A DNA stretch of 64,000 bases from Candidatus Bipolaricaulota bacterium (GCA_040752575.1 JBFMGK010000067.1:1931-65930); one strand, 5' to 3'. Numbered from the stretch's first letter, positions 25,811-42,077 are shown. A program made the numbers and translations. The notes: generated from the letters alone by a model not told the origin.

Positions 25811-27412
25811 CTAGACCTCCTCGTATCTCTGCCGAATGGCCTTGCGGTCGATCTTCCCGGTCTCGGACCGCGGAACGCTGTCGACGATCACGACGCGACG
25901 CGGCTTCTTGTACGACGCCAGATGCGCCGCGGCGTACTCCGAGATCTCGTCTTCGGTCAGCGTGCAGCCGGGCTTGGGGACAACGACCGCCTTGGGCGTC
26001 TGCCCCCACTGGGCGTGTCGGCCGCGCACCACCACGACATCGGCGACCTTCGGATGGCCAAAGATCGCTTTCTCGACCTCAGCAGGGTAGATGTTCTCGC
26101 CGCCGCTGATGATCATGTCGTCGGTCCGGCCGAGGACGTAGAAGTAGCCTTCCGCGTCTCTCTTGCCGAGGTCTCCCGTGAAGATCCAGTCGCCGCGGAA
26201 CTTCTTCGCCTCGTCAGCGGGGCGGTTCCAGTAGCCCGCCGCTCCCGTAGGTTCGCGTCGGATGATGATCTCTCCGAGTTCATCGGCGGCGGTGTCCCGT
26301 CCCTCCTCGTCGACGACCCTCACCTCAACGAACGCCGGCGGCTTCCCCATGCATTCGCTCGCCTTGCTCAGGGTCGGATCGTCGGGCGACGAGGCCGGCC
26401 AGTTGAAGCCCGTGGCTCCCGTCTCGGTGAGACCGTATCCGCTGACGTACGTGATTCCCTGACGGATGAACGCGTGTTTCAGTTCGGCCGGCTGTGGCTC
26501 GCCGCCGCCGTTCACCGCGCGAAGAGATCCTACGTACGTCTCCCACCCCTCGACCTGAAGCATCATTTTGAGTTGCGTGGCGATTCCGAAGTGGTACGTC
26601 ACGCCGTGTCGCCGGATGAGCTCGAGCGCCTCCTTCGCACCCCAGCGCGTCTGGACGACAATCGTCCCGCCGATCATCAGCATGTAGAGCTGGAAGCACG
26701 TGAGTCCACCGGCATGGAACATCGGAGGCGCCCCGAGGTACACGTCATCCCGGGTCAGCGCTGCGGAGAGCCCGTTCGAAAGACACGCGAAGAACGTGCT
26801 CCGATAGGTGAGCGTGACGCCCTTTGGACGCCCCGTCGTGCCGGCGGTAAACAGGATCATGCACGTCTCGTCGGGCGACGTCTCTGCGCCGGGCTCGGCA
26901 TCGCTCGCCCGCGCGAGGAGGTCTTCGTATCCCTCCGCCGCGTCGATACCCCTCCCTCCGACTTCGACCAGTCCTACGTCCGGGTGCGCGGCCGAGACCT
27001 CACGAATCTTGTCGCCGAACTCGCTGTCGAACACCAAGACCTTTGCGCCCATGTCTCCCACGAGGAACGAGATCTCCTCGCCGGCGAAGCGAAAGTTCGC
27101 CGGGGTGAAGACGGCCCCGAGCTTGAGGCATCCAAAGAGCACTTCGAGCGTCTCGACTCGATTGGGGAGCAGCACGAAGACCCGATCGCCCTTCCGTACG
27201 CCGCGGAGCGCGAGCGCATTCGCACACCGGGCCGCGCGGGCATTCAGCGTTCGATAGGTCACGCGGCCGTCTCCACGCCCACTCGCATCGAGGATCGCCA
27301 CGCGATCGGGGAAGCCCGAGGTGGAGGCGTTCCGGCAGAGCAGTTGCCCCAGGTTGTAGGCCGAACCGGCCGTTGGATAGGCCGAGTTCCGTACCTCGTT
27401 GTGATCCATCAC
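25811..27412 (-). CDS. AMP-dependent acyl-CoA synthetase/ligase
   Basis: 533 aa. AMP-binding motif FTAGTTGRPKG, a second motif GYGLTETG and a C-terminal PKxxxGK-type lysine region. Confidence 0.85.
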   Translation of the reverse strand: MMDHNEVRNSAYPTAGSAYNLGQLLCRNASTSGFPDRVAILDASGRGDGRVTYRTLNARAARCANALALRGVRKGDRVFVLLPNRVETLEVLFGCLKLGAVFTPANFRFAGEEISFLVGDMGAKVLVFDSEFGDKIREVSAAHPDVGLVEVGGRGIDAAEGYEDLLARASDAEPGAETSPDETCMILFTAGTTGRPKGVTLTYRSTFFACLSNGLSAALTRDDVYLGAPPMFHAGGLTCFQLYMLMIGGTIVVQTRWGAKEALELIRRHGVTYHFGIATQLKMMLQVEGWETYVGSLRAVNGGGEPQPAELKHAFIRQGITYVSGYGLTETGATGFNWPASSPDDPTLSKASECMGKPPAFVEVRVVDEEGRDTAADELGEIIIRREPTGAAGYWNRPADEAKKFRGDWIFTGDLGKRDAEGYFYVLGRTDDMIISGGENIYPAEVEKAIFGHPKVADVVVVRGRHAQWGQTPKAVVVPKPGCTLTEDEISEYAAAHLASYKKPRRVVIVDSVPRSETGKIDRKAIRQRYEEV

Positions 27413-28041
27413 GCTTCTCCTTTCGACTCTGCCTCCTCGAACCCCGGCTCCTCAAGTGTCTTTCGCAGCAGCCAAGCCACGTTCTCGGCGAACTGCTCCG
27501 CGGTTCGCATCCCCTCGGTGTCCTTCTCTGCGTCGCCGACCGATCGCGCAACGCCGATCGGCCAGTAGATGGATCCGGGAACGACGAAGCCGTTGATGTT
27601 GAACCACAGCAGGAGCTGTGCGAGGGCCATGTTCTGGCCCGCGCGGCGAGCTACCGTGATCGGCCCGCCGATCTTGCGGGCAAACGGCCGCGGCGGGCTG
27701 TTCGGGTGGCCGGCCATCCCGGGGAACCCAGCGCGCACGAGAACCGACCAAAGGTCAGCGTGCACGGCGCTGTAGTGCACGGGCGAACCGACGATGAGGG
27801 CGTCGGCTGCGAGCATCTTGTCGCGGATCTCGGGGAAGTCGTCGTCCTGGATCTGGCAGACTCCGGCTCCCGGCCTCCAGCACGCGTAGCATGCGCGGCA
27901 GCTCTGGATCCGCTTGCCACGGAGGAGCACAAGTTCCGTAGCCACGCCATGATCGGCGAGGACGCCCAGTGCCGCCTTCAGATAGGCCTCGGTGTTGCTC
28001 CCCGCCCGCGGGCTTCCGCAGATTGCCAGAGCTTTGGCCAC
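27409..28041 (-). CDS. flavodoxin-like NADPH-dependent FMN reductase / iron-sulfur flavoprotein
   Basis: 210 aa. LAICGSPRAGSNT flavin-binding loop plus a compact Cys cluster CRACYACW...C. ATGA overlap with the downstream ligase gene. Confidence 0.75.
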   Translation of the reverse strand: MAKALAICGSPRAGSNTEAYLKAALGVLADHGVATELVLLRGKRIQSCRACYACWRPGAGVCQIQDDDFPEIRDKMLAADALIVGSPVHYSAVHADLWSVLVRAGFPGMAGHPNSPPRPFARKIGGPITVARRAGQNMALAQLLLWFNINGFVVPGSIYWPIGVARSVGDAEKDTEGMRTAEQFAENVAWLLRKTLEEPGFEEAESKGEA

Positions 28042-28075
28042 CGCCGTCCCTCCCCCTTCGTCTGGGACTCCGGCC

Positions 28076-28777
28076 CTACAGGCCCAGGTAGGCGCGCCGG
28101 ACGTGGTCGTTGTTCATCAGGTCTTCGGACCGGCCCTCCAACGCGATCTCTCCATTCTCGATGACATAGCCTCGCGTCACCGCTCGCAGGCTCTGCCTCA
28201 CGTTCTGTTCCGCCATCATGATGGCGCTGCGTTCGCCGATCTCCCGAACCTTGTGGAAGAGCTCCGTCACAAGAGATGGCTGCAGCCCCAGTGATGGCTC
28301 ATCAAGGATCAGGAGCCGAGGCGACGGCATCATCGCGCGTGCGATGGCCAGCATTCTCTGCTCGCCGCCGCTCAACGTCCCAGCCAGCTGGCGCGCCCGG
28401 GACTTCAGGACGGGGAACATCTCATACGAAACTTCGAGCGCGTCCCGAATCCCCTTCCGCGCACGGGGAATGTAGGCGGCACCCGCCTCGAGGTTCGCGC
28501 GCACGGACATCAACGGGAATAGCTCTCGCTCCTGCGGAACGAGCGACACGCCCGTGCGAACGGCTTCGTGCGTGGGCAAACGCAGCAGCGATCGGCCCTC
28601 GAAGGTGATCGAGCCGCTGCGCGGCCGCACGAGCCCCACGATGGCGTGTACCAACGTTGACTTTCCCGCTCCGTTCGGACCGAAGACGCCGACCGACTCG
28701 GTCCCCACGTCCAGCGAGAGGTCGCGCAAGACGTGGGCTTTCCCGTAGTAGTGGTTCAGCTTCGAGACGGTCAGCAT
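28076..28777 (-). CDS. livF: branched-chain amino acid-type ABC transporter ATP-binding protein (LivF-like)
   Basis: Start at MLTVSKLNHYYG (ATG at 28777 overlapping the LivG stop). GPNGAGKST, LSGGEQRM, LDEPSLGL. The ORF-track N-terminal extension is rejected. Confidence 0.85.
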   Translation of the reverse strand: MLTVSKLNHYYGKAHVLRDLSLDVGTESVGVFGPNGAGKSTLVHAIVGLVRPRSGSITFEGRSLLRLPTHEAVRTGVSLVPQERELFPLMSVRANLEAGAAYIPRARKGIRDALEVSYEMFPVLKSRARQLAGTLSGGEQRMLAIARAMMPSPRLLILDEPSLGLQPSLVTELFHKVREIGERSAIMMAEQNVRQSLRAVTRGYVIENGEIALEGRSEDLMNNDHVRRAYLGL

Positions 28778-29493
28778 GTCTCCTCCTCGCCAAGATAGGC
28801 GACGATCACCCGGGGATCGGCCGAGACGTCGCAGTATGGACCTTGCGCGATGAGGGTCCCGCCGTCCAACACGATCACGCGGTCGGTGAGGTCGCGGATC
28901 ACGCTCATCACGTGCTCGACGACGCAAATCGAAACGCCCTGCTCGCGGACGATCCGCACCGATGCGAGCATGGCCTTCGTCTCGTCGCTGTTTAGCCCGG
29001 CCATGACCTCGTCGAGGAACAACACCTTGGGGCGCGTCGCCAGGGCCCGGCCAATCTCGAGCTTCTTGACCTCGAGCACGGTCAGGTCCGAGACCGGCCG
29101 GTTCATGGCACGCAGGTCGAGCAGCCGACCGATCTCGGCGGCCGTGCGGCGCGCGGCCCGCAGGCTCTGCCGCTGTCCGAACAGCGCACCGACCATGATG
29201 TTCTCCTGCGCGGTCAGGTCGGCCAGGGGGTGGACAAGCTGGAACGTTCGCGCGATCCCGCGTCGACATCGCTCGTGAGGCGGCGCGTACGTGATGTCCC
29301 GTTCGTCGAGAAGAATCCGACCCCCATTCGGCATGTACAGACCGCTGATGAGGTTGATCACCGTGGTCTTGCCCGCGCCGTTCGGCCCGATGATGCCAAG
29401 GATCTCCCGCTCCGTGAGTTCAAACGTCAAATCGTGCACGGCGACCAGGCCGCCGAAGTGTCTCTCCAAGGCCTCGGTTCTCAGGACCGACAT
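28771..29493 (-). CDS. livG: branched-chain amino acid-type ABC transporter ATP-binding protein (LivG-like)
   Basis: Start at MSVLRTEALERHFGG. GPNGAGKTT, MAGLNSDE, LDEVMAG. Confidence 0.85.
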   Translation of the reverse strand: MSVLRTEALERHFGGLVAVHDLTFELTEREILGIIGPNGAGKTTVINLISGLYMPNGGRILLDERDITYAPPHERCRRGIARTFQLVHPLADLTAQENIMVGALFGQRQSLRAARRTAAEIGRLLDLRAMNRPVSDLTVLEVKKLEIGRALATRPKVLFLDEVMAGLNSDETKAMLASVRIVREQGVSICVVEHVMSVIRDLTDRVIVLDGGTLIAQGPYCDVSADPRVIVAYLGEEETC

Positions 29494-29575
29494 CGCCGCC
29501 ACCCCCCACAATCCGTTTGCAGAGCTCGAGCACCTGCTGCCGTCCAGGCCTCGCCCGCTTCTCGTGCCGGCTGCG

Positions 29576-30517
29576 TCATGGTTTCTCACCCCGCGCGCTG
29601 GGCACACGCCGCATCGCGGCGCGGAGCATGCCTCGAATGCCCTGAGGCAGGAACAGCGTGACGATCACGATGATCGCCCCGTAGACCAGGAGATGACCAT
29701 AGGGGATCTGCAGCTTCAGATACTCCGACAAGGCGCCAAGCACGAGCCCCCCGAGCACGGGCCCCCACGTACTGTGGATCCCCCCGAGGAGGGCCATGGC
29801 CAGCGGGAGCAGGAGGAAGTTGGCGCTGAAGCTCCCCTCGGGAGAGACGAAGCCGAAGACGTGGGCATAGGTTCCGCCCGCGATCCCCTGAATCGCCGAC
29901 GTCACGGCGAAGACGAACACTAGGTACCAGAACACGTTGACGCCGCTCGTCTTGGCGACCCTCTCGTCATTTCGGATCGATGTGAGGGCAAGGTGGATTC
30001 TCGTTCGTTCGAAGACCTCGGAGACGACGATCGTCAGCAGGGCGAGCCCCAGGATGAGCCAGTAGACCTTCGTCGTGTCGCCGGCGTAGATGCAGGATGG
30101 GAGCATCTTTCCCTCGGGGCCCCCGCTCACCTGCGGGAGATTCCGCAGCACGACCGAGAAAATGCTCGCCAGCGCAAGCGTCGTGATCGCAAAGTACATT
30201 CCGCGCAGCCGCAGAACGGCAAGGCCGATCAGCGTCGCTACGGCGCCGGCCACCAGGCCGCCGAACGCGATGCTCAGGAACGGATGGATGTCCGTCTCCA
30301 GGAACAACAGGACGGCGGCGTAGCTTCCAAGCCCAAAGAAGCCGTGCGTGCCGAAGCCCAGCTGCCCCGAACGAAGCAGCATGTCCCAGCTCAGGGCCAG
30401 CGTCAGGTAGATCATCGTAGAGCCCGCGACCTGTTCGAGGTACGCTCCCGTCAGCAAGGGGAGAACCCCGGCCAGTGCGGCTCCAAGAACATAGGGGATG
30501 GCTCTCTGGATCCTCAT
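29576..30517 (-). CDS. livM: branched-chain amino acid-type ABC transporter permease (LivM-like)
   Basis: 313 aa polytopic membrane protein with the LivM/BPD_transp_2 pattern. Confidence 0.85.
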   Translation of the reverse strand: MRIQRAIPYVLGAALAGVLPLLTGAYLEQVAGSTMIYLTLALSWDMLLRSGQLGFGTHGFFGLGSYAAVLLFLETDIHPFLSIAFGGLVAGAVATLIGLAVLRLRGMYFAITTLALASIFSVVLRNLPQVSGGPEGKMLPSCIYAGDTTKVYWLILGLALLTIVVSEVFERTRIHLALTSIRNDERVAKTSGVNVFWYLVFVFAVTSAIQGIAGGTYAHVFGFVSPEGSFSANFLLLPLAMALLGGIHSTWGPVLGGLVLGALSEYLKLQIPYGHLLVYGAIIVIVTLFLPQGIRGMLRAAMRRVPSARGEKP

Positions 30518-31449
30518 GCCGCATGCCTCCGGTACGACCTCGCCATAATCACTGCGACCAGCACCGCGAAAAACACGACGTCCGCCCAGCCACCATATCC
30601 GCGGAACGAGAGCACAATGGCTTCGGCCACGCCGAGCCCGAACCCTCCCCAGACAATGCCCGGGAGGTTTCCGATGCCGGACATCGCGATGAGACAGAAC
30701 GATTTCATCGTGAACGGCGATCCGGCCGATGGGAACACGGAGTGTCGCGTCAGAAACATCGCGCCGATTGCGCCAACCAGGGCTATGGAAAGACCGAAGA
30801 TAAGAAGATACGTGCGGTTCACATCAATGCCCACGAGTCGCGCGCCCCGAGGGTTCTGGCCCACCGCCAAGGCGGCCCGACCGAGGCGTGTGCGGCGGAG
30901 AAACGCAAGGAGCACGATGAGCAGCACGATCGCCCCCGCCGTATAGATGAAGGCGTAGGTGCCGAACCTCAGCTGGCCCAGGGCCATCGACGAGTAGACG
31001 TAGGAGAGAGACGGCTTGCGCGGTTGCGACGTCCACATGAGATTCGCGAACTCGGCTCCGACCATGGCCATGCCGAAGGTCAGAAGCAACTGGTTGAGTT
31101 CCGGCGCTTTGAGCGCACGACGAATGGTCAGCCAGTACGTGACGGCCCCCACGAGGAAGAACGCTCCAAGGGCAGGGATCATCGCCACGAGGGGGTCGAC
31201 GCCCGCCGACACTCGAAACCAGTACGCCGCGTACGCTCCGAGCATCATGAACTCACCGTGTGCCAAGTTGATAATGCCGACGACTCCGAGGATGAGCGCC
31301 ATCGGGAGCGCAATCAGCGCATAGAGTCCCCCGCGCTGGATCCCCTCGATCAGAGCGTACGGCTTCCACAGCATCAGGAGAACGACGATCCCTCCCGTGA
31401 CGGCCAGGAGGACCCATTGTCCCCGCCTCATCGTGCGAAGAAGTCTCAT
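30514..31449 (-). CDS. livH: branched-chain amino acid-type ABC transporter permease (LivH-like)
   Basis: Start at MRLLRTMRRGQWVLL. LivH-like hydrophobic profile. 4-nt overlap with livM. Confidence 0.85.
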   Translation of the reverse strand: MRLLRTMRRGQWVLLAVTGGIVVLLMLWKPYALIEGIQRGGLYALIALPMALILGVVGIINLAHGEFMMLGAYAAYWFRVSAGVDPLVAMIPALGAFFLVGAVTYWLTIRRALKAPELNQLLLTFGMAMVGAEFANLMWTSQPRKPSLSYVYSSMALGQLRFGTYAFIYTAGAIVLLIVLLAFLRRTRLGRAALAVGQNPRGARLVGIDVNRTYLLIFGLSIALVGAIGAMFLTRHSVFPSAGSPFTMKSFCLIAMSGIGNLPGIVWGGFGLGVAEAIVLSFRGYGGWADVVFFAVLVAVIMARSYRRHAA

Positions 31450-35988: not shown

Positions 35989-37203
35989 CTAGAAGCCACC
36001 GTAGGTCTCACGCTCCCAATCCCGCTCGTCGGTTGAGTACACGACGGCCACATCGTCGGATCCGAAGATGGCCGCGGCGGCGCTGCGATCCATCGTTCCT
36101 GCCTCGACGAACGCCGTGATGAGCTGCAGCGTCTCCGCGGGGCGGTGGATCGGGAATCCGTGGTCGTAGCCCCGGCCGGACTTGAGCATCACCGCGGTCA
36201 CGTTTGCCCCCGCAACGCGCAGGTCGTACTTCGTGTTCTGGGTGATGGAGTCGGCAATCACGAGATCGCCGCGCCATCTGAGCCGATCGGTCTCGGCCTT
36301 CACCAGGAGAACATCGAGTCCTGCCAACGCATCGAGGCGGTCGGCCCCGGGAAGGGTCACCACGGCGCCGTCTTGGTTCCGATGCGACAGCGTCTCGGCC
36401 GCGAAGTTGAACATATGGCTCGCGTAGAGAGACTCCGGCATGTACTGCGTCTTCTGGACGTCTTCGAGCACCGCGCGGTAGGCTGGCGTCTCGAGGTACG
36501 CAGGATCGCCGACGGACATCCGCGCGAGGTCGTACGCGAGGACCTCGTTGAACACCACGAGATTCCAGGCGGCTGCCATGTCTTCGGGCGAACGCTGCTC
36601 GCCCCACAAGGAACGCTGCTGGAACGCGACGGCGTCGATCGAGTCCGCCCAATCCCCCAACGCGTAATGCTTCCCCGTCTGCGGATCGGTACCCCCCGTC
36701 GTCGGAGAGAACATCACGCGCACGCCTCGCGTCCCGATCCCGGCCAGAGAGATCAGTCGCGAGACGCTTGCCCGGCTCCTCACGGCCAGGCACTGGGCCA
36801 CTCCGAACCCCATCGAGTGGCCGACGAGCGTGAGGTCGCCTCTGCGCAGGCAGGAATCGCTCTCGATCACCTCGGCGAAGTCCGCGGCGAAGTCGTCGAG
36901 CGAGGTGATCGGGTGATGGTAGGTCGAGCGGCCGCTTCCCCGGTAGTCCAGGGCATAGAACGTGTAGCGGTTGTAGACGTCCGCCCGCGCCGCGACCCGG
37001 CATAGCAGCTCCCGAAAGGCCTCGCCCGAGCAGTTGTTGCCCGCGAGAAGGACAACGGCCTCGTCTCCGCGACCGACGCGCAGGACTCCGATCGCTTCCC
37101 CGCTCGACACGCGCACGGTGCGCTCCTCGACGCGGCGTGACGCCGGACCGCTGCACGACGAGAGAAGACCGACAAAGCAAAAGGTCATCCCCAGGCCCAG
37201 CAT
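35989..37203 (-). CDS. alpha/beta hydrolase lipoprotein
   Basis: Start at MLGLGMTFCFVGLLSSCSG (lipobox LSSC), GGAGGAG RBS. Nucleophile elbow GHSMG. Confidence 0.7.
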   Translation of the reverse strand: MLGLGMTFCFVGLLSSCSGPASRRVEERTVRVSSGEAIGVLRVGRGDEAVVLLAGNNCSGEAFRELLCRVAARADVYNRYTFYALDYRGSGRSTYHHPITSLDDFAADFAEVIESDSCLRRGDLTLVGHSMGFGVAQCLAVRSRASVSRLISLAGIGTRGVRVMFSPTTGGTDPQTGKHYALGDWADSIDAVAFQQRSLWGEQRSPEDMAAAWNLVVFNEVLAYDLARMSVGDPAYLETPAYRAVLEDVQKTQYMPESLYASHMFNFAAETLSHRNQDGAVVTLPGADRLDALAGLDVLLVKAETDRLRWRGDLVIADSITQNTKYDLRVAGANVTAVMLKSGRGYDHGFPIHRPAETLQLITAFVEAGTMDRSAAAAIFGSDDVAVVYSTDERDWERETYGGF

Positions 37204-37269
37204 CTCGCTCCTCCATCGCCGTAGGCGCTGACTTGATCGCACTTCGCTCGCCATCCTGCTCTGGCGCTC

Positions 37270-38007
37270 CTAGGGAATGAGGCCGCCATCCACGCATACG
37301 ACGGACCCGTTCACATAGGCGGCGTCGTCCGACGCAAGGAACAGGTACACGTTCGCCACGTCGCGCGCCGTGCCCAGACGGCCGAGCGGCGTTCGCGACC
37401 GCATGAGGTCCAGGACTTTCTCCGGGACCCCCTCGGTCATCTCCGTCTGGATGAACCCCGGAGCGACGGCATTGACCGTGATCCCCTTCCGCCCAAGTTC
37501 ACGGGCCCACACTTTGGTCATTCCGATGACTCCGGCCTTCGTCGCAGCGTAGTTTGTCTGCCCGAAGTTCCCGTAGACTCCGACGACGGAAGAGACGTTG
37601 ATGATCCGGCCGCTTCCCTGGTCCAGCATCCGCGGGGCCACCGCCTGCGTGAGGTTGAACGTGCCTTTGAGGTTCACGGCGATAACCCGATCGAAGTCGT
37701 TCTCGGAGAGCTTGACCAGCTGCGCATCGCGGGTGATGCCGGCGTTGTTGACCAGAATGTCGATCCGGCCGAATGCGCTCACGGCGGACTCGACGAGCGC
37801 CGAGCACTGCTCGCGGCTCGTGACATCGCCGCGCGCGAAGGTCGCCTCCCCCCCATGGGATCGGATCTCCAGGACGACCTTCTCTCCCTGCGGATCGACA
37901 TCGGCAACAACGACTCTGGCCCCTTCTCGGGCGAACAGCGTGGCGGCCTCGCGGCCAATCCCGCGACCAGCCCCCGTGATCATGGCGACCTTCCCCGCTA
38001 GGCGCAT
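37270..38007 (-). CDS. fabG: 3-oxoacyl-[ACP] reductase (FabG-like SDR)
   Basis: Start at MRLAGKVAMITGAGRGIG with AAAGGAGA upstream. NNAGI and YAATK motifs. Full-length FabG-like. Confidence 0.85.
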   Translation of the reverse strand: MRLAGKVAMITGAGRGIGREAATLFAREGARVVVADVDPQGEKVVLEIRSHGGEATFARGDVTSREQCSALVESAVSAFGRIDILVNNAGITRDAQLVKLSENDFDRVIAVNLKGTFNLTQAVAPRMLDQGSGRIINVSSVVGVYGNFGQTNYAATKAGVIGMTKVWARELGRKGITVNAVAPGFIQTEMTEGVPEKVLDLMRSRTPLGRLGTARDVANVYLFLASDDAAYVNGSVVCVDGGLIP

Positions 38008-38023: not shown

Positions 38024-39043
38024 CTAGGCCCATCGGAACAGCGCCGTGGACAAGACAAACCCCGCACCCGACGTACAGAACGCCACCAGATCGCCCGCCG
38101 AGATCCGCCCCCGGTCCAGAGCATCGCAGAGCGCCATGAAGACGGATGCCGAGCCCGCGTAGCCGAACTTGTCGGCGACCCAATGAGTCTTTTCCATCGA
38201 GAGGCCCAAAGCCTCGAGCGTCGCTCGCACAGCTCCCACTTCCACCTGGTTCATGAGGACAAGATCGAGATCCTTCGGCGTCACGCCGGCGGCTTCGGTG
38301 GTCTTGCGCATCAGAACTGGCCATCGCGTGACGTTGAAGTCGCCGGGTACGCGGTGAGCGTTCTCGTGGAACCTCAGGTAGTGCTGCTTGTTCGCCACCA
38401 TCTCCGGCGTCAGAGGACGTCCTGTCCCGAGGTAGATGCCGTAGGTATCCCAGCAGCTGCCTTCACTCATCATCTTGCTCGCCAGGTACCCGGGCTCGCG
38501 GGACGGCGAGAGCACAACGGCTCCGGCGCCGTCACTGAACAGCGTGGCCAGCACCTTGGAAGCCGATTGGGAATAGGGGCTCCAGTCTAGCCACTTCGTC
38601 ATGCCGTAGGCGCCTACGATGACGACGTGCTGGATCGCCGGGTCCAGGGCGATGTAGTGCGACCCGATCGCCAGGGCGATCGTCTCGTCGGTGCACGCGG
38701 CGTTGATGTCGAAAGCACCAGCGTTCCGGGCTCCCAGCTTGTGCTGGATGATCGCCGAGGTCGGCGGGCTCACGTAGTCCGGCGTGTCCGTCGCGAGGAT
38801 GATCAGGTCGACCTCATCCGGCCGAAGCCCGGCCTGCTTCAAGGCCTGGCGCGTCGCCTCGACCGCCATGTCAGACGCGGACTCGTCGGGCCGGGCCCGA
38901 AATCGGACGCCGATCCCCTTCTCCGCGAGGTACGACTCGACGTCGTACTCCATCATCCTCCCGAGTTCGGCGTTGGTGATCCGCTCCTCGGGGATGTACA
39001 TCCCGACCCCGGAGATCTTGGCAGCTCGCAGCGCGTTGACCAT
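38024..39043 (-). CDS. 3-oxoacyl-ACP synthase III (FabH)-like condensing enzyme with a non-canonical triad
   Basis: 339 aa. Aligns with FabH through the AFDxxAAC(T) active-site Cys and DGAGA motifs. The positions of FabH His244 and Asn274 appear as Asn (LMNQVE) and Tyr (FGYAGSAS). Confidence 0.75.
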   Translation of the reverse strand: MVNALRAAKISGVGMYIPEERITNAELGRMMEYDVESYLAEKGIGVRFRARPDESASDMAVEATRQALKQAGLRPDEVDLIILATDTPDYVSPPTSAIIQHKLGARNAGAFDINAACTDETIALAIGSHYIALDPAIQHVVIVGAYGMTKWLDWSPYSQSASKVLATLFSDGAGAVVLSPSREPGYLASKMMSEGSCWDTYGIYLGTGRPLTPEMVANKQHYLRFHENAHRVPGDFNVTRWPVLMRKTTEAAGVTPKDLDLVLMNQVEVGAVRATLEALGLSMEKTHWVADKFGYAGSASVFMALCDALDRGRISAGDLVAFCTSGAGFVLSTALFRWA

Positions 39044-39049: not shown

Positions 39050-39496
39050 CTACCCCTCCACCCTGGCCAGAACGACGGTCGCTCGACCGTCGGGAAGGAT
39101 CTCGGCGCGGGGCATCAGCGACATCCCCACCCGGAGCGCGTCGGCCGGAACGCCAAGGATCCAGCCCGTGACGCGCAACCCGTTCTTCATCTCGACGATG
39201 CCCACCGGGCGCGGCTGATACGAGTAGGCGGAGAACGGCGCGGTGCGCGACAGGTCCGGCGTGAAGTGCTTGGGCGTAACGTAGATCGATGTGAACGAGA
39301 TCAGGCGGCCTTCGCCGGACACCGGCACCCACTCAAACGCCGATCCCAGGCAATGGGGACAGTCGCTACGCGGCGGGTACTGCAGCACCCCGCAGGACGA
39401 GCATTTGGAAGCCAGGATCTCTCCACGACCGAGCCCATCGACGAAACCATGCACCTTCGTGTCCTGGATCTGCAGACTGAAGTCTCGGAACTGCAT
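39050..39496 (-). CDS. DUF35 OB-fold/Zn-ribbon protein (thiolase-associated)
   Basis: 148 aa. CxxC...CxxC zinc ribbon (CSSCGVLQYPPRSDCPHC) plus an OB-fold. ATGA overlap with the upstream thiolase. Confidence 0.8.
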   Translation of the reverse strand: MQFRDFSLQIQDTKVHGFVDGLGRGEILASKCSSCGVLQYPPRSDCPHCLGSAFEWVPVSGEGRLISFTSIYVTPKHFTPDLSRTAPFSAYSYQPRPVGIVEMKNGLRVTGWILGVPADALRVGMSLMPRAEILPDGRATVVLARVEG

Positions 39497-39498
39497 CC

Positions 39499-40665
39499 CT
39501 ACTCCTTGTCCGTCGAGAAGATGTGCACCGCTGCGTGCTGCCCGTTGCCGCCGACGTTGTGCGACAGACCCATCTCCGCGCCGGAGACCTGGCGCCCCGG
39601 CTCCGCCTCGCCGCGGAGCTGCTTGGTGATCTCGACGGCCATCGAGACGCCGGTCGTCCCGATGGGATGCCCCTTGGACTTCAGGCCTCCGTCGACATTG
39701 ACCGGAATCCTCCCACCAATCGACGTGTGCCCCTCCTCGACCAGCGGACCTCCCTCGCCGCGCGAGCAGAAGCCGAGGTCTTCATAGGCAACGACCTCAG
39801 CAATCGTGAAACAGTCATGAACCACCGCAACGTCGATGTCTTTCGCTTGTACCCCAGCCATCTCATAGGCCTGCCGCGCCGCCTCGACGGTCGCGCCGAG
39901 CGTCGTCAGGTCCTCGCGATGCGCGAGGGACAGGCTGCCGGTACCCAGACCCAGGCCGCGGATCCAGACGGGCCTTCTCGACATGCGCTTGGCCAGCTTC
40001 TCGGAGGCCAGCAGCACGGCAGCCGCGCCGTCTGAGATCAGGCAGCAGTCGTAGAGCTTGAGCGGGGAGGCAACGACAAACGAACTGAGCGCCTTCTCGA
40101 GGGTGATCTCCTTACGCAGATGCGCGTACGGGTTGAGCGCGCCGTAGCGATGATTCTTGACGGCAACGGCGGCAAGCTGCTCTTCCGTGGTCCCGTACTT
40201 GGCCATGTGGGCTCGAGCAATGAGCGCGTAGTAGCCCGGAAACGTCATTCCGAACGGGTACTCCCAGAGGAAGTCCCCGGCGCGCCCCAGCACTTCGGTC
40301 GCGCGCGCCGTCGGCACTTCCGTCATCTTCTCGGCCCCGACGACCAGCACGAGGTCCGCGAGACCGCAGGCGACGTTCATCCATCCCGTCCGCACGGCCA
40401 TGCTCCCCGACGCGCAAGCGCCTTCCACGCGGAAACTCGGTCTGGGGTGAAAACCAAGGTAGTCGACGACCTGTGCAGACGGCTGAAGTGCACAACTCAA
40501 CTCGTCCGAGGCCACACTGACGACCATGGCCTCGACATCGGCAAGGGGAACGCCGGCATCCTGCAGGCACGCGGCAACTGCCTCGAAGGCCAGCTCGCGC
40601 AGCGATGCGTCCTCGCGAACTCCAAACCGGCCGTGCCCGACGCCGACGACGGCAACGTTTTGCAT
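39499..40665 (-). CDS. thiolase-like protein (SCP-x/archaeal-type acetyl-CoA C-acyltransferase family)
   Basis: 388 aa. Active-site Cys in the GACASGSMAV context, with C-terminal HDCF and GG motifs. GGGAGG RBS. Confidence 0.85.
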   Translation of the reverse strand: MQNVAVVGVGHGRFGVREDASLRELAFEAVAACLQDAGVPLADVEAMVVSVASDELSCALQPSAQVVDYLGFHPRPSFRVEGACASGSMAVRTGWMNVACGLADLVLVVGAEKMTEVPTARATEVLGRAGDFLWEYPFGMTFPGYYALIARAHMAKYGTTEEQLAAVAVKNHRYGALNPYAHLRKEITLEKALSSFVVASPLKLYDCCLISDGAAAVLLASEKLAKRMSRRPVWIRGLGLGTGSLSLAHREDLTTLGATVEAARQAYEMAGVQAKDIDVAVVHDCFTIAEVVAYEDLGFCSRGEGGPLVEEGHTSIGGRIPVNVDGGLKSKGHPIGTTGVSMAVEITKQLRGEAEPGRQVSGAEMGLSHNVGGNGQHAAVHIFSTDKE

Positions 40666-40835
40666 CCCGCCTCCCTGACGGCACGTGAGACCCGGACCCC
40701 TGATGGTGCGGTCAGCGGACCCCGGGGTGTGAAGGGTGACTCAGGTCTCACACTAGCATGGAAGGCGCGCTAAGGTCAACCAGAGACGGTCCTCGGCGGA
40801 GCCGTGGCCACGCTCCCGGCGGCCTGCGGCTCTCG

Positions 40836-42077
40836 CTAGCCGTTGCGGTCGAGAAGTCCTCTCTCCAGAAAGTCCAGCAGGGCGCAGACGACCCGGTCCG
40901 CAGGCACGGGCTTGGCGTCATCGGCCAGCCACCACAAGGCCACGGAGTGCCCGGCACCCAGAAGGGCATAAGAGAGGGGCTCAGGCGCCATCCTGTAGAC
41001 CTCTCCGCGCTCCATCGCCTGACTCAGTCCCGCGGTGTAGCCTCTCGCGAGCCGCTCGTAATACCAACGTCCCGTCTCGGGATCGATCAGCTCTGCCTCG
41101 CGGATGATCCAGTAGGCACCGCGATGCGCAGCGATGAACCGAAAGAAAGCCTGGAAACCCGCAACCTCGACCTCGCGCCGGTCGACGATTCCCGCCAGCG
41201 CGGCTCGTTCCGCGGCTCTGAACTTCCTGTTGATCTCGCGCGCAAGCTCGGCAAAGATAGCCACCTTGCTCGGGAAGTGCAGGTAGAACGTGCCCTGCGC
41301 CACGCCCGCGACGTAGGTGATCGCGGAGACGGATGTCTGATAGAACCCCGTCTGCCCGAACAGACGTTCGGCCGCATCGAGAAGTGCCTGACGCGTGGCT
41401 TCCCCTCCCTGCAATGTGTCCGCGGGGTCGCCTTGCCGAGGCTCGGCCCCGACAGGAGGCCTCTTCATGCCCTCCACCCTGGCGGTGCCGGTGTCGAACC
41501 CGCTCATCACGAGACACTCCAGCGTGCGGTACACGCCCTCATGAAGCGAACCCGGCTCCCAAAGGATGTACCGCATCACCATGAACTCGAGCATCCCAAG
41601 AATCGCGTACGCGGCAGTGGTTTCGTCCACCGCCCGGAAAACGCCGCTCTCGACGCCCGCCCGAAGGACGCGTCCCAACGCCTCGGCAAGGTTCATCCGG
41701 AACTGCCGATGGATCCCAAGCCGAATCGCTTCCGCGCCACGGCCGACGCGATAGAGCGCCGATTCGCGGGCGATGTAGTGAAGCACGTCGCGACACGCTT
41801 GGAGCAGGGCATCGCGGCCGTCGGCCGCCTCGGCGAGCGCTCGCTGGATGCGCTCGCGCATGCCGTTCTGAAGACGCTCGACGAGCGCCGCGAAGATCTC
41901 CTCTTTGTGCTCGAAGTGCCGGTAGAACGTCCCGTTCGCGAGTCCGGCTCTGCGGCAGATCTCCGAGACGGACGCCTCGTGATATCCCCGCTCGCTGAAC
42001 ACGGCTTCCCCGGCTTGCAGGAGCGCTTCTCGCGTTCTCGCCGGAGTGGACCTTCTGCCGCCGATGCCTTTCACCAT
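40836..42077 (-). CDS. tandem-domain TetR-family transcriptional regulator
   Basis: Start at MVKGIGGRRSTP with GGGAGGA upstream. Two TetR N-terminal HTH units (ASVSEICRRAGLANGTFYRHF and TSVSAITYVAGVAQGTFYLHF) in one polypeptide. Confidence 0.8.
   Translation of the reverse strand: MVKGIGGRRSTPARTREALLQAGEAVFSERGYHEASVSEICRRAGLANGTFYRHFEHKEEIFAALVERLQNGMRERIQRALAEAADGRDALLQACRDVLHYIARESALYRVGRGAEAIRLGIHRQFRMNLAEALGRVLRAGVESGVFRAVDETTAAYAILGMLEFMVMRYILWEPGSLHEGVYRTLECLVMSGFDTGTARVEGMKRPPVGAEPRQGDPADTLQGGEATRQALLDAAERLFGQTGFYQTSVSAITYVAGVAQGTFYLHFPSKVAIFAELAREINRKFRAAERAALAGIVDRREVEVAGFQAFFRFIAAHRGAYWIIREAELIDPETGRWYYERLARGYTAGLSQAMERGEVYRMAPEPLSYALLGAGHSVALWWLADDAKPVPADRVVCALLDFLERGLLDRNG

What the first reader, a model, noticed from the sequence alone, without database searches (positions are those of the whole stretch)
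25811..42077. Seventeen-gene TetR-headed lipid/acyl-CoA operon with an embedded Liv-type transporter
Seventeen genes run co-directionally with short or overlapping junctions. The operon is headed by a tandem-domain TetR. It includes a Liv-type ABC system and an acyl-CoA ligase, so the Liv system more likely imports a hydrophobic organic acid than amino acids. The composition (thiolase–DUF35, two SDRs, enoyl-CoA hydratase, two alpha/beta hydrolases, FMN reductase) resembles the side-chain/ring-cleavage logic of steroid, terpenoid or branched-lipid catabolism. The substrate is not identifiable from sequence.
Basis: partly seen in the sequence, partly recalled or inferred. Interest (0 to 1): 0.5.

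Follow-up and report, generated by a model that had tools for sequence, protein, structure and literature searches.

The report
TetR-controlled acid uptake and thiolysis operon
This is a real, conserved gene cluster of an uncultured Bipolaricaulota bacterium that most likely imports a non-amino-acid organic acid, links it to coenzyme A and cuts it to acetyl-CoA; its substrate is unknown, and it contains a widespread "FabH-like" enzyme that cannot work as FabH.

Summary
Seventeen co-directional minus-strand genes fill 25811-42077, bounded by opposite-strand housekeeping genes.

The window comes from a Ca. Bipolaricaulota MAG. About twelve related MAGs keep the same cluster in the same order. 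A conserved promoter and 21-bp palindromic operator lie between the tandem TetR gene and the thiolase gene, so the unit is 16 structural genes plus a separately transcribed repressor.

The Liv components score far below every true Leu/Ile/Val model. The thiolase is a catalytically intact SCP2/archaeal-ACAT type with a stand-alone DUF35, not a steroid Ltp2-type aldolase.

The KASIII-like protein defines a clade with an invariant Asp-Cys-(Asn/Thr)-Tyr tetrad, against FabH Thr-Cys-His-Asn and HMG-CoA synthase Glu-Cys-His-Asn. In more than ten phyla it sits next to alpha/beta hydrolases, a FabG-like SDR, a CoA ligase or CoA-transferase, a thiolase, a Liv-type importer and a tandem TetR. No acyl-CoA dehydrogenase recurs.

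Best reading: inducible uptake, CoA activation and thiolysis of an already oxygenated, possibly ester-derived, carboxylic acid. The steroid/terpenoid analogy is not supported. Substrate and KASIII role remain unresolved. Moderate interest.

The parts
40836..42077 (-). Tandem-domain TetR-family regulator (413 aa, two TetR_N HTH domains)
   Evidence: Pfam TetR_N, two stretches. NCBIfam best hits are FasR-, FadR- and ScbR-like, all below cutoff. A ~400-420 aa tandem TetR recurs in 27 of 82 related loci. It is on the opposite strand in L012.
40733..40782 (-). Promoter-like TTGAC-N17/18-gCTAnnnT, followed by a 21-bp palindromic operator TGA-N4-TGA-N-TCA-N4-TCA (operator 40733-40753)
   Evidence: Alignment A2 of the TetR-thiolase spacer from 10 Bipolaricaulota loci: these positions are invariant while the rest of the spacer varies. 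The core GTGAGACCTGAGTCAC occurs once in the window.
39499..40665 (-). SCP2/archaeal-ACAT-type thiolase (388 aa) with intact CAS, HDCF and GHP motifs
   Evidence: NCBIfam PRK06064 520.5 bits, above the 420 cutoff. PDB 7yvy 296 bits and 6esq_A 261 bits. Motifs read from the translation and interpreted using PMC12960953 and PMC12329534.
39050..39496 (-). Stand-alone DUF35 protein (148 aa; CxxC...CxxC zinc ribbon plus OB fold)
   Evidence: Pfam zf-ChsH2 + OB_ChsH2_C. PDB 9myr_B, 6ok1_B and 6esq_E. Starts 2 nt after the thiolase stop.
38024..39043 (-). KASIII/FabH-fold protein (339 aa) with an Asp86-Cys117-Asn265-Tyr295 tetrad; not a decarboxylating condensing enzyme
   Evidence: Pfam ACP_syn_III/_C. 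Below the FabH cutoffs (212.6 vs 249; 185.7 vs 292). The FabH alignment shows His to Asn and Asn to Tyr. Asp86 aligns with the HMGS catalytic Glu (A3). The tetrad is invariant in 121 and in 77 homologues. AF2 model pLDDT 87.6 with a FabH fold.
37270..38007 (-). FabG-grade classical SDR (245 aa, YxxxK); most constant partner of the KASIII-like gene
   Evidence: TIGR01830 307.8 bits, above the 297.75 cutoff. 46-86% identical copies lie next to the KASIII-like gene in 42 loci.
35989..37254 (-). 421-aa alpha/beta hydrolase with an N-terminal lipoprotein signal (LSSC lipobox); strain-variable insertion
   Evidence: Pfam Abhydrolase_1/6. Weak similarity to PHB depolymerases: NF050089 84 bits against cutoff 300; 8ynv 53.6 bits over the N-terminal half only. 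Present in only 3 of about 12 syntenic Bipolaricaulota loci (L005, L008, L010).
35224..35979 (-). Classical SDR 2 (251 aa)
   Evidence: Pfam adh_short. No NCBIfam model passed; best hits are generic SDR / 3-hydroxybutyrate-dehydrogenase-like.
34484..35227 (-). Classical SDR 3 (247 aa); overlaps SDR 2 by 4 nt
   Evidence: Pfam adh_short_C2. NCBIfam PRK12826.1-2 FabG subfamily 227.6 bits, above the 222 cutoff.
33630..34463 (-). Crotonase-family enoyl-CoA hydratase (277 aa) with both catalytic Glu motifs (GGGLE, LPE)
   Evidence: Pfam ECH_1 169 bits. Best NCBIfam hit is short-chain enoyl-CoA hydratase, below cutoff. Motifs read.
32840..33658 (-). Serine alpha/beta hydrolase (272 aa, GxSxG); esterase / C-C hydrolase / enol-lactonase-like
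   Evidence: PDB 4q3l (MGS-M2) 160 bits. PcaD model 134.8 vs cutoff 255. Orthologues (50-80% identity) lie next to the KASIII-like gene and transporter in Dehalococcoidia and other lineages. An ABH of this cluster occurs in 54 of 82 loci.
31529..32719 (-). Secreted Peripla_BP_6 substrate-binding protein (396 aa); not a LivJ/LivK orthologue
   Evidence: 100% identical to an NCBI Ca. Bipolaricaulota MAG protein (P0121).
28076..31449 (-). HAAT-family ABC core: LivH-like 30514-31449, LivM-like 29576-30517, LivG-like 28771-29493, LivF-like 28076-28777
   Evidence: Pfam BPD_transp_2 twice; ABC_tran twice, one with BCA_ABC_TP_C. All are below the NCBIfam Liv and Urt equivalog cutoffs.
27409..28041 (-). 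FMN_red flavoprotein (210 aa) with a CxxCxxCx7C motif (iron-sulfur flavoprotein-like)
   Evidence: Pfam FMN_red 83 bits. Cys motif read. Present in Bipolaricaulota loci, L019 and L090.
25811..27412 (-). ANL-family acyl-CoA ligase (533 aa); FadD13 / PRK06187-like
   Evidence: Pfam AMP-binding + AMP-binding_C. PRK06187 433 bits vs cutoff 476. PDB 8weu/8wev 280 bits, FadD13 277 bits. Replaced by an AcetylCoA_hydro-family CoA-transferase in Caldisericum.
25761..25790 (.). Perfect 10-bp inverted repeat (GGGACGGACA/TGTCCGTCCC) between the convergent ends of the ligase and PPDK genes; candidate bidirectional terminator
   Evidence: Function is inferred from position only.

Best explanation
This is a substrate-inducible catabolic or salvage operon of a Ca. 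Bipolaricaulota bacterium.

Shown:
- Sixteen structural genes (thiolase to ligase) lie behind a conserved promoter that abuts a 21-bp palindromic operator.
- A tandem-domain TetR gene sits just upstream.

Inferred:
- The TetR represses the operon until an acyl-CoA or the substrate binds it.
- The binding-protein-dependent, Liv-family ABC importer takes up a carboxylic acid that is not an alpha-amino acid.
- The ANL ligase converts that acid to its CoA thioester.
- The crotonase and the classical SDRs, including a FabG-grade and therefore probably R-specific 3-hydroxyacyl dehydrogenase, bring it to a 3-oxoacyl-CoA.
- The catalytically intact SCP2/archaeal-type thiolase, held by its DUF35 partner, cleaves it thiolytically to acetyl-CoA.
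- No acyl-CoA dehydrogenase belongs to this gene set in any lineage. The substrate therefore probably enters already at the enoyl, 3-hydroxy or 3-oxo level.
- One to three serine alpha/beta hydrolases are always present. Some lineages also have a secreted lipoprotein hydrolase or a PETase-family hydrolase. This points to an ester-linked precursor. (R)-3-hydroxyalkanoate esters or oligomers are my preferred, weakly supported, guess.
- The KASIII-like protein keeps the acyl-accepting Cys. It has lost the His/Asn pair needed to decarboxylate malonyl-ACP, and it carries an invariant Asp where HMG-CoA synthase has its catalytic Glu. It therefore most likely performs a Cys-dependent, non-decarboxylative acyl-transfer or (retro-)Claisen/aldol-type step on a CoA thioester. 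In Bipolaricaulota it may act as the third partner of the thiolase/DUF35 pair.
For: Gene content and coupling.

Synteny in about 12 Bipolaricaulota MAGs, and an 8-gene orthologous core (KASIII-ABH-SBP-LivHMGF-ligase, 50-66% identity) in Dehalococcoidia, Syntrophales and others.

Conserved promoter and operator.

Non-orthologous displacement in the Caldisericum sp. AR60 isolate supports the roles 'CoA activation' and 'thiolysis'. There the ligase is replaced by an AcetylCoA_hydro-family CoA-transferase and the SCP2 thiolase/DUF35 by a classical thiolase, while ABH, KASIII, FabG, SBP, LivGFHM and the tandem TetR are kept.

Unbiased neighbour clustering over 82 distinct loci: ABH 54, ligase 43, SDR 42, LivFG 32, LivM 31, LivH 27, tandem TetR 27, SBP 26 plus 13 in a second SBP cluster, second ABH type 17, ECH 14, classical thiolase 13, SCP2 thiolase 11, DUF35 9, CoA-transferase 7, MaoC 5. 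No acyl-CoA dehydrogenase cluster appears.

The Liv components are not LIV orthologues.

Thiolase motifs are intact.

KASIII-like tetrad.

Hydrolase hints: lipoprotein ABH with weak PHB-depolymerase similarity; a PETase-family secreted hydrolase beside the Bathyarchaeia version.
Against: No enzyme reaches an equivalog cutoff for a specific substrate.

The binding-protein model is mediocre (pLDDT 70.7). Its fold neighbours are equally amino-acid, fatty-acid, aromatic-acid and urea binders.

The PHB-depolymerase similarities are far below cutoffs (79-84 bits against 300).

The proposed pathway does not actually need the KASIII-like enzyme, although that is the best-conserved gene of the neighbourhood.

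The minimal Dehalococcoidia core lacks an SDR and a thiolase.

The direction, catabolic or biosynthetic, is inferred, not shown.

The ligase is closest to medium/long-chain and feruloyl-CoA ligases rather than short-chain ones.
Confidence: 0.55

Rival explanations
1. Biosynthetic, ACP-independent chain elongation (archaeal-FAS-like or reverse beta-oxidation). An imported primer acid is CoA-activated and then extended by the thiolase/DUF35 pair condensing with acetyl-CoA. A FabG-like ketoacyl-CoA reductase and a hydratase acting as dehydratase follow. The KASIII-like enzyme primes, and a hydrolase releases the product.
For: The thiolase is of the archaeal ACAT/ketothiolase type and is paired with DUF35. 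In Sulfolobus, KT/DUF35 plus an SDR ketoacyl-CoA reductase plus a dehydratase form a fatty-acid synthase (bioRxiv 10.1101/2024.07.05.601840). SDR1 passes the FabG cutoff. No acyl-CoA dehydrogenase is present anywhere. No ACP-like ORF was found in the window or the loci searched, consistent with CoA-based chemistry.
Against: There is no enoyl-CoA reductase: all three SDRs have the classical YxxxK motif and there is no MDR-family gene. The window has a crotonase rather than the R-specific MaoC dehydratase of the archaeal system. The constant company of an importer, CoA ligase or transferase, serine hydrolases and a TetR repressor is typical of catabolism. In Caldisericum the partners are a short-chain CoA-transferase and a classical degradative or acetoacetyl-type thiolase. 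A bacterial ACAT/HMGS-DUF35 complex tested in vitro worked only in the thiolytic direction (PMC12960953).
Confidence: 0.15
2. One reading: a steroid, terpenoid, alicyclic or branched-lipid side-chain/ring-cleavage pathway, of the Ltp2/ChsH2, cyclohexane-carboxylate or alkylbenzoate type.
For: Thiolase-DUF35 pairs occur in steroid side-chain cleavage and in benzylsuccinate degradation. Multiple SDRs, a crotonase and meta-cleavage-type hydrolase folds are present. Weak hits exist to cyclohexanecarboxylate-CoA ligase and hydroxycyclohexanecarboxylate dehydrogenase models, all far below cutoff.
Against: The thiolase retains CAS/HDCF, whereas steroid aldolases have YDHF or YDCY and lack the nucleophile. 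Ltp2 scores 151 bits, against 261-296 for the archaeal ACATs. BbsB scores 205 vs cutoff 750 and BbsA 36 vs 250. DUF35 is not fused to a MaoC hydratase. The cluster has no acyl-CoA dehydrogenase, oxygenase, or BadI/Oah-type ring hydrolase. HsaD scores 68 vs cutoff 400. The hosts are anaerobic fermenters (PMC6092417).
Confidence: 0.07
3. A specialised C-C bond-forming or acyl-transfer system. One form would be a PhlABC/MucABC-like Friedel-Crafts acyltransferase built from thiolase, DUF35 and a KASIII-like subunit. The other would be an Ole-like head-to-head condensation / beta-lactone route, since KASIII + SDR + ANL enzyme + alpha/beta hydrolase mirror OleA/D/C/B at superfamily level.
For: Three adjacent, tightly coupled genes (thiolase, DUF35, third thiolase-fold protein; gaps of 2 and 6 nt) match the architecture of the ACAT/HMGS/DUF35 and PhlABC complexes. 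The four Ole superfamilies co-occur with the KASIII-like gene in many phyla. An invariant Asp at the HMGS base position could generate an acyl-Cys enolate.
Against: PhlC-type subunits have lost the HDxF His, whereas this thiolase keeps HDCF. There are no PKS/NRPS neighbours. OleA matches are partial and weak (about 43 bits), and OleA needs Cys-His-Asn. ABH2 has a GxSxG serine nucleophile, not the Asp nucleophile of OleB (plus established knowledge). SDR1 is a classical FabG, not a 3-beta-HSD-type OleD. An SBP-dependent importer fits catabolism better.
Confidence: 0.08
4. A genuine branched-chain (or other) amino-acid importer that merely sits inside an unrelated lipid-metabolism operon. The published model for the closest complete genome draws it this way.
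For: Pfam and JGI annotations call the components a branched-chain amino-acid transport system. The Ran1 metabolic model includes BCAA import (PMC6092417). Ser79 and Tyr202 of LivJ, which contact the ligand carboxylate, are conserved.
Against: All five components are far below the Liv equivalog cutoffs. LivJ Glu226 aligns to Ala/Ser/Val. The transporter co-migrates with the KASIII, hydrolase and ligase genes across phyla. The Ran1 paper itself states that BCAA catabolic enzymes are missing. The cluster contains no transaminase or keto-acid dehydrogenase.
Confidence: 0.05

Closest known systems
[quoted passage not shown]
   Same: Three adjacent genes encode an SCP2/ACAT-type thiolase with CxS, HDxF and GHx motifs, a zinc-ribbon/OB DUF35 protein, and a second thiolase-fold protein. 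The thiolase scores 261 bits to 6esq_A and passes the PRK06064 model. As in the Pseudomonas complex, the thiolase looks active while the third subunit lacks the canonical catalytic set.
   Different: The third protein is FabH-derived (149 bits to FabH against 50 bits to HMGS) and carries Asp-Cys-Asn-Tyr instead of Glu-Cys-His-Asn. There is no mevalonate-pathway context. The KASIII-like gene is often found without thiolase/DUF35 in other phyla. Complex formation is untested.
Rhodopseudomonas palustris pim-type clusters: Liv-family ABC importers for fatty, dicarboxylic or aromatic acids next to a CoA ligase and beta-oxidation genes (from my own knowledge: Harrison & Harwood 2005; Giuliani et al. 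2011; Michalska et al. 2012)
   Same: A HAAT/Liv-family binding-protein-dependent importer is used for organic acids rather than amino acids. It is clustered with an acyl-CoA ligase, a hydratase, a dehydrogenase and a thiolase under a dedicated repressor.
   Different: No acyl-CoA dehydrogenase. It has the archaeal-type thiolase + DUF35, the KASIII-like enzyme, FabG-type SDRs and several serine hydrolases. The hosts are anaerobic candidate phyla. The binding protein is only 18-24% identical to any solved homologue.
FabH / KAS III
   Same: Same fold (Foldseek TM 0.8-0.88). Same position of the acyl-accepting Cys. Public annotation calls the family 'ketoacyl-ACP synthase III'.
   Different: The His and Asn of the catalytic triad are replaced by Asn/Thr and Tyr. 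An invariant Asp replaces the Thr 31 residues before the Cys. There is a family-specific insert around residues 196-235. It scores below both FabH model cutoffs. There are no fabD/acpP/fabF neighbours, and no ACP-like ORF in any locus.
Sulfolobus ACP-independent fatty-acid synthase (KT/DUF35 + SDR ketoacyl-CoA reductase + MaoC dehydratase + enoyl-CoA reductase)
   Same: A ketothiolase/DUF35 pair next to a FabG-like SDR. The chemistry is CoA-based and ACP-free.
   Different: No MaoC dehydratase in the window (a crotonase instead). No MDR enoyl-CoA reductase. It is embedded with an importer, a ligase and hydrolases.

Membership tests
LIV-I branched-chain amino-acid ABC transporter (LivJ/K-HMGF) | Each component reaches the curated equivalog score of the Liv models | tested here: not met
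   SBP 49.8 vs 477; LivH 73.4 vs 379; LivM 101.1 vs 366; LivG 183.9 vs 362; LivF 194.6 vs 441.
LIV-I branched-chain amino-acid ABC transporter (LivJ/K-HMGF) | Binding-protein residues that hold the alpha-amino group (LivJ Glu226) and the carboxylate (Ser79, Tyr202) | tested here: inconclusive
   aligned to the real E. coli LivJ/LivK sequences. Ser79 and Tyr202 are conserved. Glu226 aligns to Ala/Ser/Val in all 18 orthologues. Identity is only about 20%, so column assignment is uncertain.
HAAT-family ABC importer (architecture only) | Peripla_BP_6 binding protein, two BPD_transp_2 permeases and two ATPases, one with the BCA_ABC_TP_C tail | tested here: met
ACAT/HMGS/DUF35 tripartite thiolase complex | SCP2/ACAT-type thiolase with CxS, HDxF and GHx motifs | tested here: met
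   CAS, HDCF and GHP in the translation. 7yvy 296 bits and 6esq_A 261 bits. PRK06064 520.5 bits, above 420. Motif definitions.
ACAT/HMGS/DUF35 tripartite thiolase complex | Stand-alone DUF35 with a C4 zinc ribbon and an OB fold, encoded next to the thiolase | tested here: met
ACAT/HMGS/DUF35 tripartite thiolase complex | Third subunit is an HMG-CoA synthase (or HMGS-derived protein) with or without the E-C-H-N tetrad | tested here: not met
   The third gene is KASIII-derived: FabH 149 bits against HMGS 6esq_I 50 bits. The HMGS models match only the N-terminal half. The tetrad is D-C-N-Y.
ACAT/HMGS/DUF35 tripartite thiolase complex | Physical assembly of the three proteins | not testable with these tools
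   No multimer prediction or experiment is available. The only support is tight gene coupling (gaps of 2 and 6 nt) and recurrence of thiolase+DUF35 near the KASIII-like gene in L059 and L074 (thiolase alone in L055).
PhlABC/MucABC Friedel-Crafts C-acyltransferase | PhlC-type subunit has lost the His of HDxF; the cluster is associated with a PKS or NRPS | tested here: not met
   HDCF is retained. PhlC scores only 132 bits. The window has no PKS/NRPS genes.
Steroid side-chain aldolase Ltp2-ChsH2(DUF35) / Sal-Shy | Thiolase-like subunit with YDHF/YDCY in place of HDCF and no nucleophilic Cys; DUF35 fused to a MaoC hydratase; ChsE-type acyl-CoA dehydrogenases nearby | tested here: not met
   Criteria from PMC12329534. 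The window protein has CAS + HDCF. DUF35 is a separate 148-aa protein. The cluster has no MaoC or ACAD gene.
Benzoylsuccinyl-CoA thiolase BbsAB | Equivalog scores for BbsB and BbsA | tested here: not met
   BbsB 204.9 vs 750; BbsA 35.8 vs 250.
FabH (beta-ketoacyl-ACP synthase III) | Cys-His-Asn catalytic triad and the curated model score | tested here: not met
   His to Asn/Thr and Asn to Tyr. PRK09352 212.6 vs 249; TIGR00747 185.7 vs 292.1.
FabH (beta-ketoacyl-ACP synthase III) | KAS III fold | tested here: met
   AF2 model pLDDT 87.6. Foldseek top 50 are all KAS III-type enzymes: mainly FabH, plus BioZ, PqsD and a polyketide priming ketosynthase (TM 0.77-0.88).
OleABCD olefin / beta-lactone pathway | OleA with Cys-His-Asn plus the Glu base; OleB with an Asp nucleophile; 3-beta-HSD-type OleD | tested here: not met
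   OleA structures match only residues 43-120 at about 43 bits. The triad is absent. ABH2 has GxSxG. SDR1 is a classical FabG. The OleB and OleD criteria come from established knowledge.
Archaeal ACP-independent fatty-acid synthase | KT/DUF35 + SDR ketoacyl-CoA reductase + MaoC (R)-dehydratase + MDR enoyl-CoA reductase | tested here: not met
   KT/DUF35 and a FabG-like SDR are present. MaoC and an MDR reductase are absent from the window cluster. System definition.
TetR-family repressor with palindromic operator | TetR_N HTH domain(s) and a conserved palindrome at the regulated promoter | tested here: met
   Two TetR_N domains. The palindrome TGA-N4-TGA-N-TCA-N4-TCA is conserved in 10 loci just downstream of a -10-like element. 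Binding itself is not tested.

The most novel reading that the evidence does not exclude
The KASIII-like proteins with the invariant Asp-Cys-(Asn/Thr)-Tyr tetrad are a new, functionally distinct branch of the thiolase superfamily. They are currently mis-annotated as FabH. They would catalyse a non-decarboxylative C-C (Claisen/aldol or retro-) or acyl-transfer reaction on CoA thioesters. In Bipolaricaulota the protein would replace HMG-CoA synthase as the third subunit of a thiolase/DUF35 complex. This would make it the signature enzyme of a so-far undescribed, horizontally spread pathway for an oxygenated, ester-derived acid. The pathway would be used by many uncultured anaerobic phyla (Bipolaricaulota, Dehalococcoidia, Bathyarchaeia, Caldisericota, Coprothermobacterota) and by Bdellovibrionales.
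Probability: 0.2. Interest if true: 0.7.

Novelty: new variant of a known kind. Interest (0 to 1): 0.5.

Why it matters
Three reasons, in order of confidence.

1. Annotation. The Liv system here, and in hundreds of related metagenomic loci, is routinely labelled a branched-chain amino-acid transporter. The KASIII-like gene is routinely labelled FabH. Both labels are probably wrong, and they feed into metabolic models of candidate phyla. The Ran1 model of the closest complete genome draws BCAA import while noting that BCAA catabolism is absent.

2. A testable module. The gene set recurs in reshuffled order, with non-orthologous replacements, across more than ten phyla of mostly uncultured anaerobes. 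That marks a real but uncharacterised carbon-acquisition module. One host is a cultured isolate (Caldisericum sp. AR60), so it could be tested directly.

3. Enzymology. If the KASIII-like protein docks onto the thiolase/DUF35 pair, it would be a third, independently evolved type of DUF35-scaffolded thiolase complex, besides the HMGS-based complex and its Friedel-Crafts descendants. That is of interest for C-C bond enzymology.

Tried and rejected
- Exact-sequence look-ups of window proteins in the contig collection found nothing. The source was identified only through a 100%-identical binding protein in NCBI.
- The consensus promoter scan found no sigma-70 site, and terminator-like hits did not exceed shuffles. 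The inverted-repeat tool found nothing in the regulatory spacers. The promoter and operator emerged only from comparing ten orthologous spacers.
- Literature searches for DUF35 + thiolase + KASIII, for Bipolaricaulota + thiolase or fatty acid, and for MGS-M2 returned no description of this cluster. The Ran1 genome paper does not mention it.
- Ligand inference for the binding protein failed. Sequence hits to solved homologues are at most 67 bits. The AF2 model is mediocre. Foldseek ranks amino-acid, fatty-acid, aromatic-acid, urea and pyroglutamate binders equally.
- The fold search of the KASIII-like model only returned FabH and related KAS III enzymes, and gave no functional discrimination.
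- I considered a MenH/MenE/MenB set and a BioH/BioZ/FabG set (menaquinone or biotin precursor logic). I rejected both: the crotonase does not hit MenB, no bio or men genes are nearby, and the KASIII-like protein lacks the decarboxylation residues.
- I considered hydroxycinnamate beta-oxidation, because the ligase's top solved hit is a feruloyl-CoA synthetase. I kept it only as one possible substrate class, because nothing else is specific.
- The CoA-biosynthesis genes and PPDK flanking the cluster are not conserved next to it in related loci, so I do not count them as part of the system.

Full report
**Observation**

The region 25811-42077 carries 17 consecutive genes on the minus strand. All have the codon-position GC pattern of real genes in this 65% GC sequence.

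Gene order, 5' to 3' on the minus strand:
- TetR 40836-42077
- thiolase 39499-40665
- DUF35 39050-39496
- KASIII-like 38024-39043
- SDR1 37270-38007
- 421-aa hydrolase 35989-37254
- SDR2 35224-35979
- SDR3 34484-35227
- enoyl-CoA hydratase 33630-34463
- hydrolase ABH2 32840-33658
- binding protein 31529-32719
- LivH-like 30514-31449
- LivM-like 29576-30517
- LivG-like 28771-29493
- LivF-like 28076-28777
- FMN_red 27409-28041
- ligase 25811-27412

Five junctions overlap, eight are 2-34 nt, and four are 79-170 nt. Pfam confirms the families.

The two it missed are a third SDR and a KASIII/FabH-like protein.

The flanks are opposite-strand housekeeping genes. PPDK and ArgRS lie on one side; CoaBC, a DUF2520 reductase and PanB lie on the other. 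A perfect 10-bp hairpin sits between the convergent ends. The cluster boundaries are therefore sharp.

**Source and conservation**

The binding protein is 100% identical to a protein of an NCBI 'Candidatus Bipolaricaulota bacterium' MAG on a 71.5-kb contig. Homologues of the KASIII-like protein are 74-92% identical in Bipolaricaulis/Bipolaricaulota.

In Ca. Bipolaricaulis anaerobius the order is: tandem TetR, thiolase, DUF35, KASIII, SDR, SDR, SDR, ECH, ABH, SBP, LivHMGF, FMN_red, ligase. This is identical to the window except that the 421-aa hydrolase is missing.

A genome scan returned 80 loci. A tblastn map of the 17 window proteins shows the full cluster in about 12 Bipolaricaulota MAGs. 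The 421-aa hydrolase is present in only three of them.

**Regulation**

The 170-bp spacer after the TetR gene was aligned with the orthologous spacers of nine other loci. The alignment shows an invariant TTGAC, then a 17-18 nt variable spacer, then gCTAnnnT. Directly after that comes an invariant palindrome, TGA-N4-TGA-N-TCA-N4-TCA (window 40733-40753). The core of the palindrome occurs once in the window. In one relative the TetR gene is on the other strand (L012).

I conclude, by inference, that the 16 structural genes form the regulated operon. The tandem TetR, a built-in pseudo-dimer, would be its separately transcribed repressor. Its nearest named relatives are acyl-CoA-responsive regulators (FasR, Bacillus FadR), all below cutoff.

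**The transporter**

The architecture is that of the HAAT/Liv family, but every component is far below the Liv equivalog cutoffs. The binding protein scores 22-30 bits to the E. coli LivJ/LivK structures and at most 67 bits to any solved homologue.

I aligned it with the real E. coli LivJ and LivK sequences. The carboxylate-contacting Ser79 and Tyr202 are conserved. Glu226, which holds the alpha-ammonium group, aligns to Ala, Ser or Val in all 18 orthologues. This is suggestive only, because identity is about 20%.

An AF2 model (pLDDT 70.7) is equidistant from amino-acid, fatty-acid (4n03), aromatic-acid (4ey3, 4evq), urea and pyroglutamate binders. The ligand therefore cannot be assigned.

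**The thiolase/DUF35 pair**

The thiolase passes the PRK06064 model (520 bits against a 420 cutoff). It is closest to archaeal-type acetoacetyl-CoA thiolases (7yvy 296 bits; 6esq_A 261 bits). It is more distant from BbsB (182), Ltp2 (151) and PhlC (132).

It keeps the nucleophile motif CAS, the HDCF motif and GHP. These are the features that distinguish active ACAT/SCP2 thiolases from two other groups. PhlC/MucB acyltransferases have lost the HDxF His (PMC12960953). Steroid aldolases have YDHF or YDCY and no nucleophile (PMC12329534).

DUF35 is a separate 148-aa zinc-ribbon/OB protein. The steroid Ltp2/ChsH2 analogy is therefore not supported.

**The KASIII-like protein**

It has a FabH fold (AF2 pLDDT 87.6; Foldseek TM 0.8-0.88) but scores below both FabH cutoffs.

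Alignment to FabH structures shows that the acyl-accepting Cys is retained. His244 is replaced by Asn and Asn274 by Tyr.

I aligned it to two real HMG-CoA synthases, fetched from annotated plasmids with a remembered probe. The family's invariant Asp86 (motif ILATDTPD) falls on the HMGS catalytic Glu (GTES/ATES).

The tetrad Asp86-Cys117-(Asn/Thr)265-Tyr295 is invariant in 121 database homologues. It is also invariant in 77 genomic homologues down to 38% identity. This is a selected catalytic arrangement, not a decayed FabH.

By established FabH enzymology, loss of His and Asn abolishes malonyl-ACP decarboxylation but not acyl transfer to the Cys. No ACP-like ORF occurs in the window or in the loci searched.

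My inference is a non-decarboxylative, Cys-dependent acyl-transfer or (retro-)Claisen/aldol step on CoA thioesters. The tight coupling of thiolase, DUF35 and KASIII genes (gaps of 2 and 6 nt) copies the gene architecture of the ACAT/HMGS/DUF35 complexes, but assembly is untested.

**The wider neighbourhood**

In Dehalococcoidia, Syntrophales and others there is an orthologous 8-gene core (50-66% identity): KASIII, ABH2, SBP, LivHMGF, ligase. It occurs without a thiolase or SDRs.

More distant versions keep the same families in other orders:
- Bathyarchaeia: SBP, LivHMGF, ABH, KASIII, ligase, ABH, MaoC, beside a secreted PETase-family hydrolase.
- A 'Nitrospiraceae' MAG: KASIII, ABH, SDR, tandem TetR, SBP, LivGFHM, ligase, SCP2 thiolase.
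- The Caldisericum sp. AR60 isolate: ABH, KASIII, FabG, SBP, LivGFHM, tandem TetR, an AcetylCoA_hydro-family CoA-transferase, and a classical thiolase.
- A locus (L090) with two ligases and two KASIII genes.

Unbiased clustering of all neighbours in 82 distinct loci gives these counts: ABH 54, ligase 43, SDR 42, LivFG 32, LivM 31, LivH 27, tandem TetR 27, SBP 26 plus 13, a second ABH type 17, ECH 14, classical thiolase 13, SCP2 thiolase 11, DUF35 9, CoA-transferase 7, MaoC 5. No acyl-CoA dehydrogenase cluster appears.

Two replacements stand out: ligase by CoA-transferase, and SCP2 thiolase/DUF35 by classical thiolase. These are non-orthologous displacements, and they support the step assignments 'CoA activation' and 'thiolysis'.

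**Mechanism proposed**

The importer takes up a non-amino carboxylic acid. The ligase makes the CoA ester. The hydratase and SDRs produce a 3-oxoacyl-CoA. The thiolase/DUF35 pair cleaves it to acetyl-CoA. The TetR senses the substrate or its CoA ester.

The missing acyl-CoA dehydrogenase implies that the substrate is already at the enoyl, 3-hydroxy or 3-oxo level. The ever-present serine hydrolases imply an ester precursor. Supporting hints include a lipoprotein hydrolase with weak PHB-depolymerase similarity and the PETase-family neighbour in Bathyarchaeia.

(R)-3-hydroxyalkanoate esters or oligomers would fit the FabG-type (R-specific) dehydrogenase and the MaoC genes. This is a guess, at roughly 25% within the main explanation. 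Hydroxycinnamate esters, or 3-hydroxy fatty acids from cell-envelope debris, are alternatives.

The weak point is that this scheme does not require the KASIII-like enzyme, which is the best-conserved gene of the neighbourhood.

**Rivals**

- An archaeal-FAS-like biosynthetic reading is possible, but it lacks an enoyl reductase and fits poorly with the importer, hydrolases and repressor.
- PhlABC-like or Ole-like chemistry fails several defining features.
- A genuine BCAA importer is contradicted by the scores and by the synteny.

**Comparison and novelty**

The logic matches known Liv-family organic-acid uptake plus beta-oxidation clusters, such as the R. palustris pim cluster (from my own knowledge), and DUF35-thiolase systems. 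It differs in three ways: the KASIII-like Asp-Cys-Asn-Tyr enzyme, the absence of an acyl-CoA dehydrogenase, and the hydrolase-rich composition.

I found no description of the cluster in the searchable literature. I rate it a new variant of a known kind, with moderate interest (0.5). The substrate and the KASIII-like reaction remain open.

Noticed in passing
window 42182-45182 (+): CoA-biosynthesis genes are transcribed divergently from the TetR gene of this CoA-thioester-rich operon: CoaBC, a DUF2520/F420_oxidored-type putative ketopantoate reductase, and PanB. The adjacency is not conserved in related loci, so it is probably coincidental.
   Followed up: partly
window 35989-37254 (-): The 421-aa lipoprotein alpha/beta hydrolase is a strain-variable insertion between SDR1 and SDR2. 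It is present in only 3 of about 12 syntenic Bipolaricaulota loci (L005, L008, L010) and absent from Ca. Bipolaricaulis anaerobius.
   Followed up: partly
window 5079-12388 and 13071-19829 (-): Two tandem Opp/Dpp-type peptide ABC operons lie here. Each has two oligo_HPY ATPases, two BPD_transp_1 permeases and an unusually large SBP_bac_5 binding protein (about 895 and 725 aa in stop-to-stop frames).
   Followed up: no
window 60600-63942 (+): A carbamate-kinase-like amino-acid kinase is followed by two paralogous aspartate/ornithine carbamoyltransferase genes in tandem. This suggests an arginine/agmatine-type or other carbamoyl-phosphate-yielding fermentation module.
   Followed up: no
window 2567-5078 (-): Two high-GC3 ORFs (216 and 623 aa) have no Pfam match at E <= 1e-8.
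   Followed up: no
L085 1-1776 (-), Bathyarchaeia contig CAZLCE010000014.1: A secreted PETase/PAF-AH-family hydrolase with Ig-like domains and a PQQ beta-propeller protein lie immediately upstream of the Bathyarchaeia version of the SBP-LivHMGF-ABH-KASIII-ligase-ABH-MaoC cluster. This is a hint at polyester-derived substrates.
   Followed up: partly
L090 14765-15810 (+): In this relative the KASIII-like gene next to the transporter is split into 209-aa and 139-aa ORFs (a frameshift or assembly error). A second intact KASIII-like gene and a second ligase follow.
   Followed up: no
L046 11756-13324 and L086 7631-9214: In the Caldisericum and 'Nitrospiraceae' versions, the Peripla_BP_6 binding protein carries an N-terminal Cu_amine_oxidN1 domain (about 520 aa in total). 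In Bathyarchaeia it carries a Flg_new_2 domain (606 aa). These are presumably cell-surface anchoring modules.
   Followed up: no
window 27409-28041 (-): The FMN_red protein has a compact CxxCxxCx7C motif like the iron-sulfur flavoproteins (Isf) of anaerobes. Its role in the operon is unexplained. It travels with the cluster only in Bipolaricaulota, L019 and L090.
   Followed up: partly
public databases: Members of the KASIII-like clade are named 'ketoacyl-ACP synthase III' and the binding proteins 'branched-chain amino acid transport system substrate-binding protein' by NCBI and JGI. Both names are likely misleading. Several Bipolaricaulota MAGs carrying the cluster are labelled Thermotogae/Thermotogaceae in their record titles.
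   Followed up: partly
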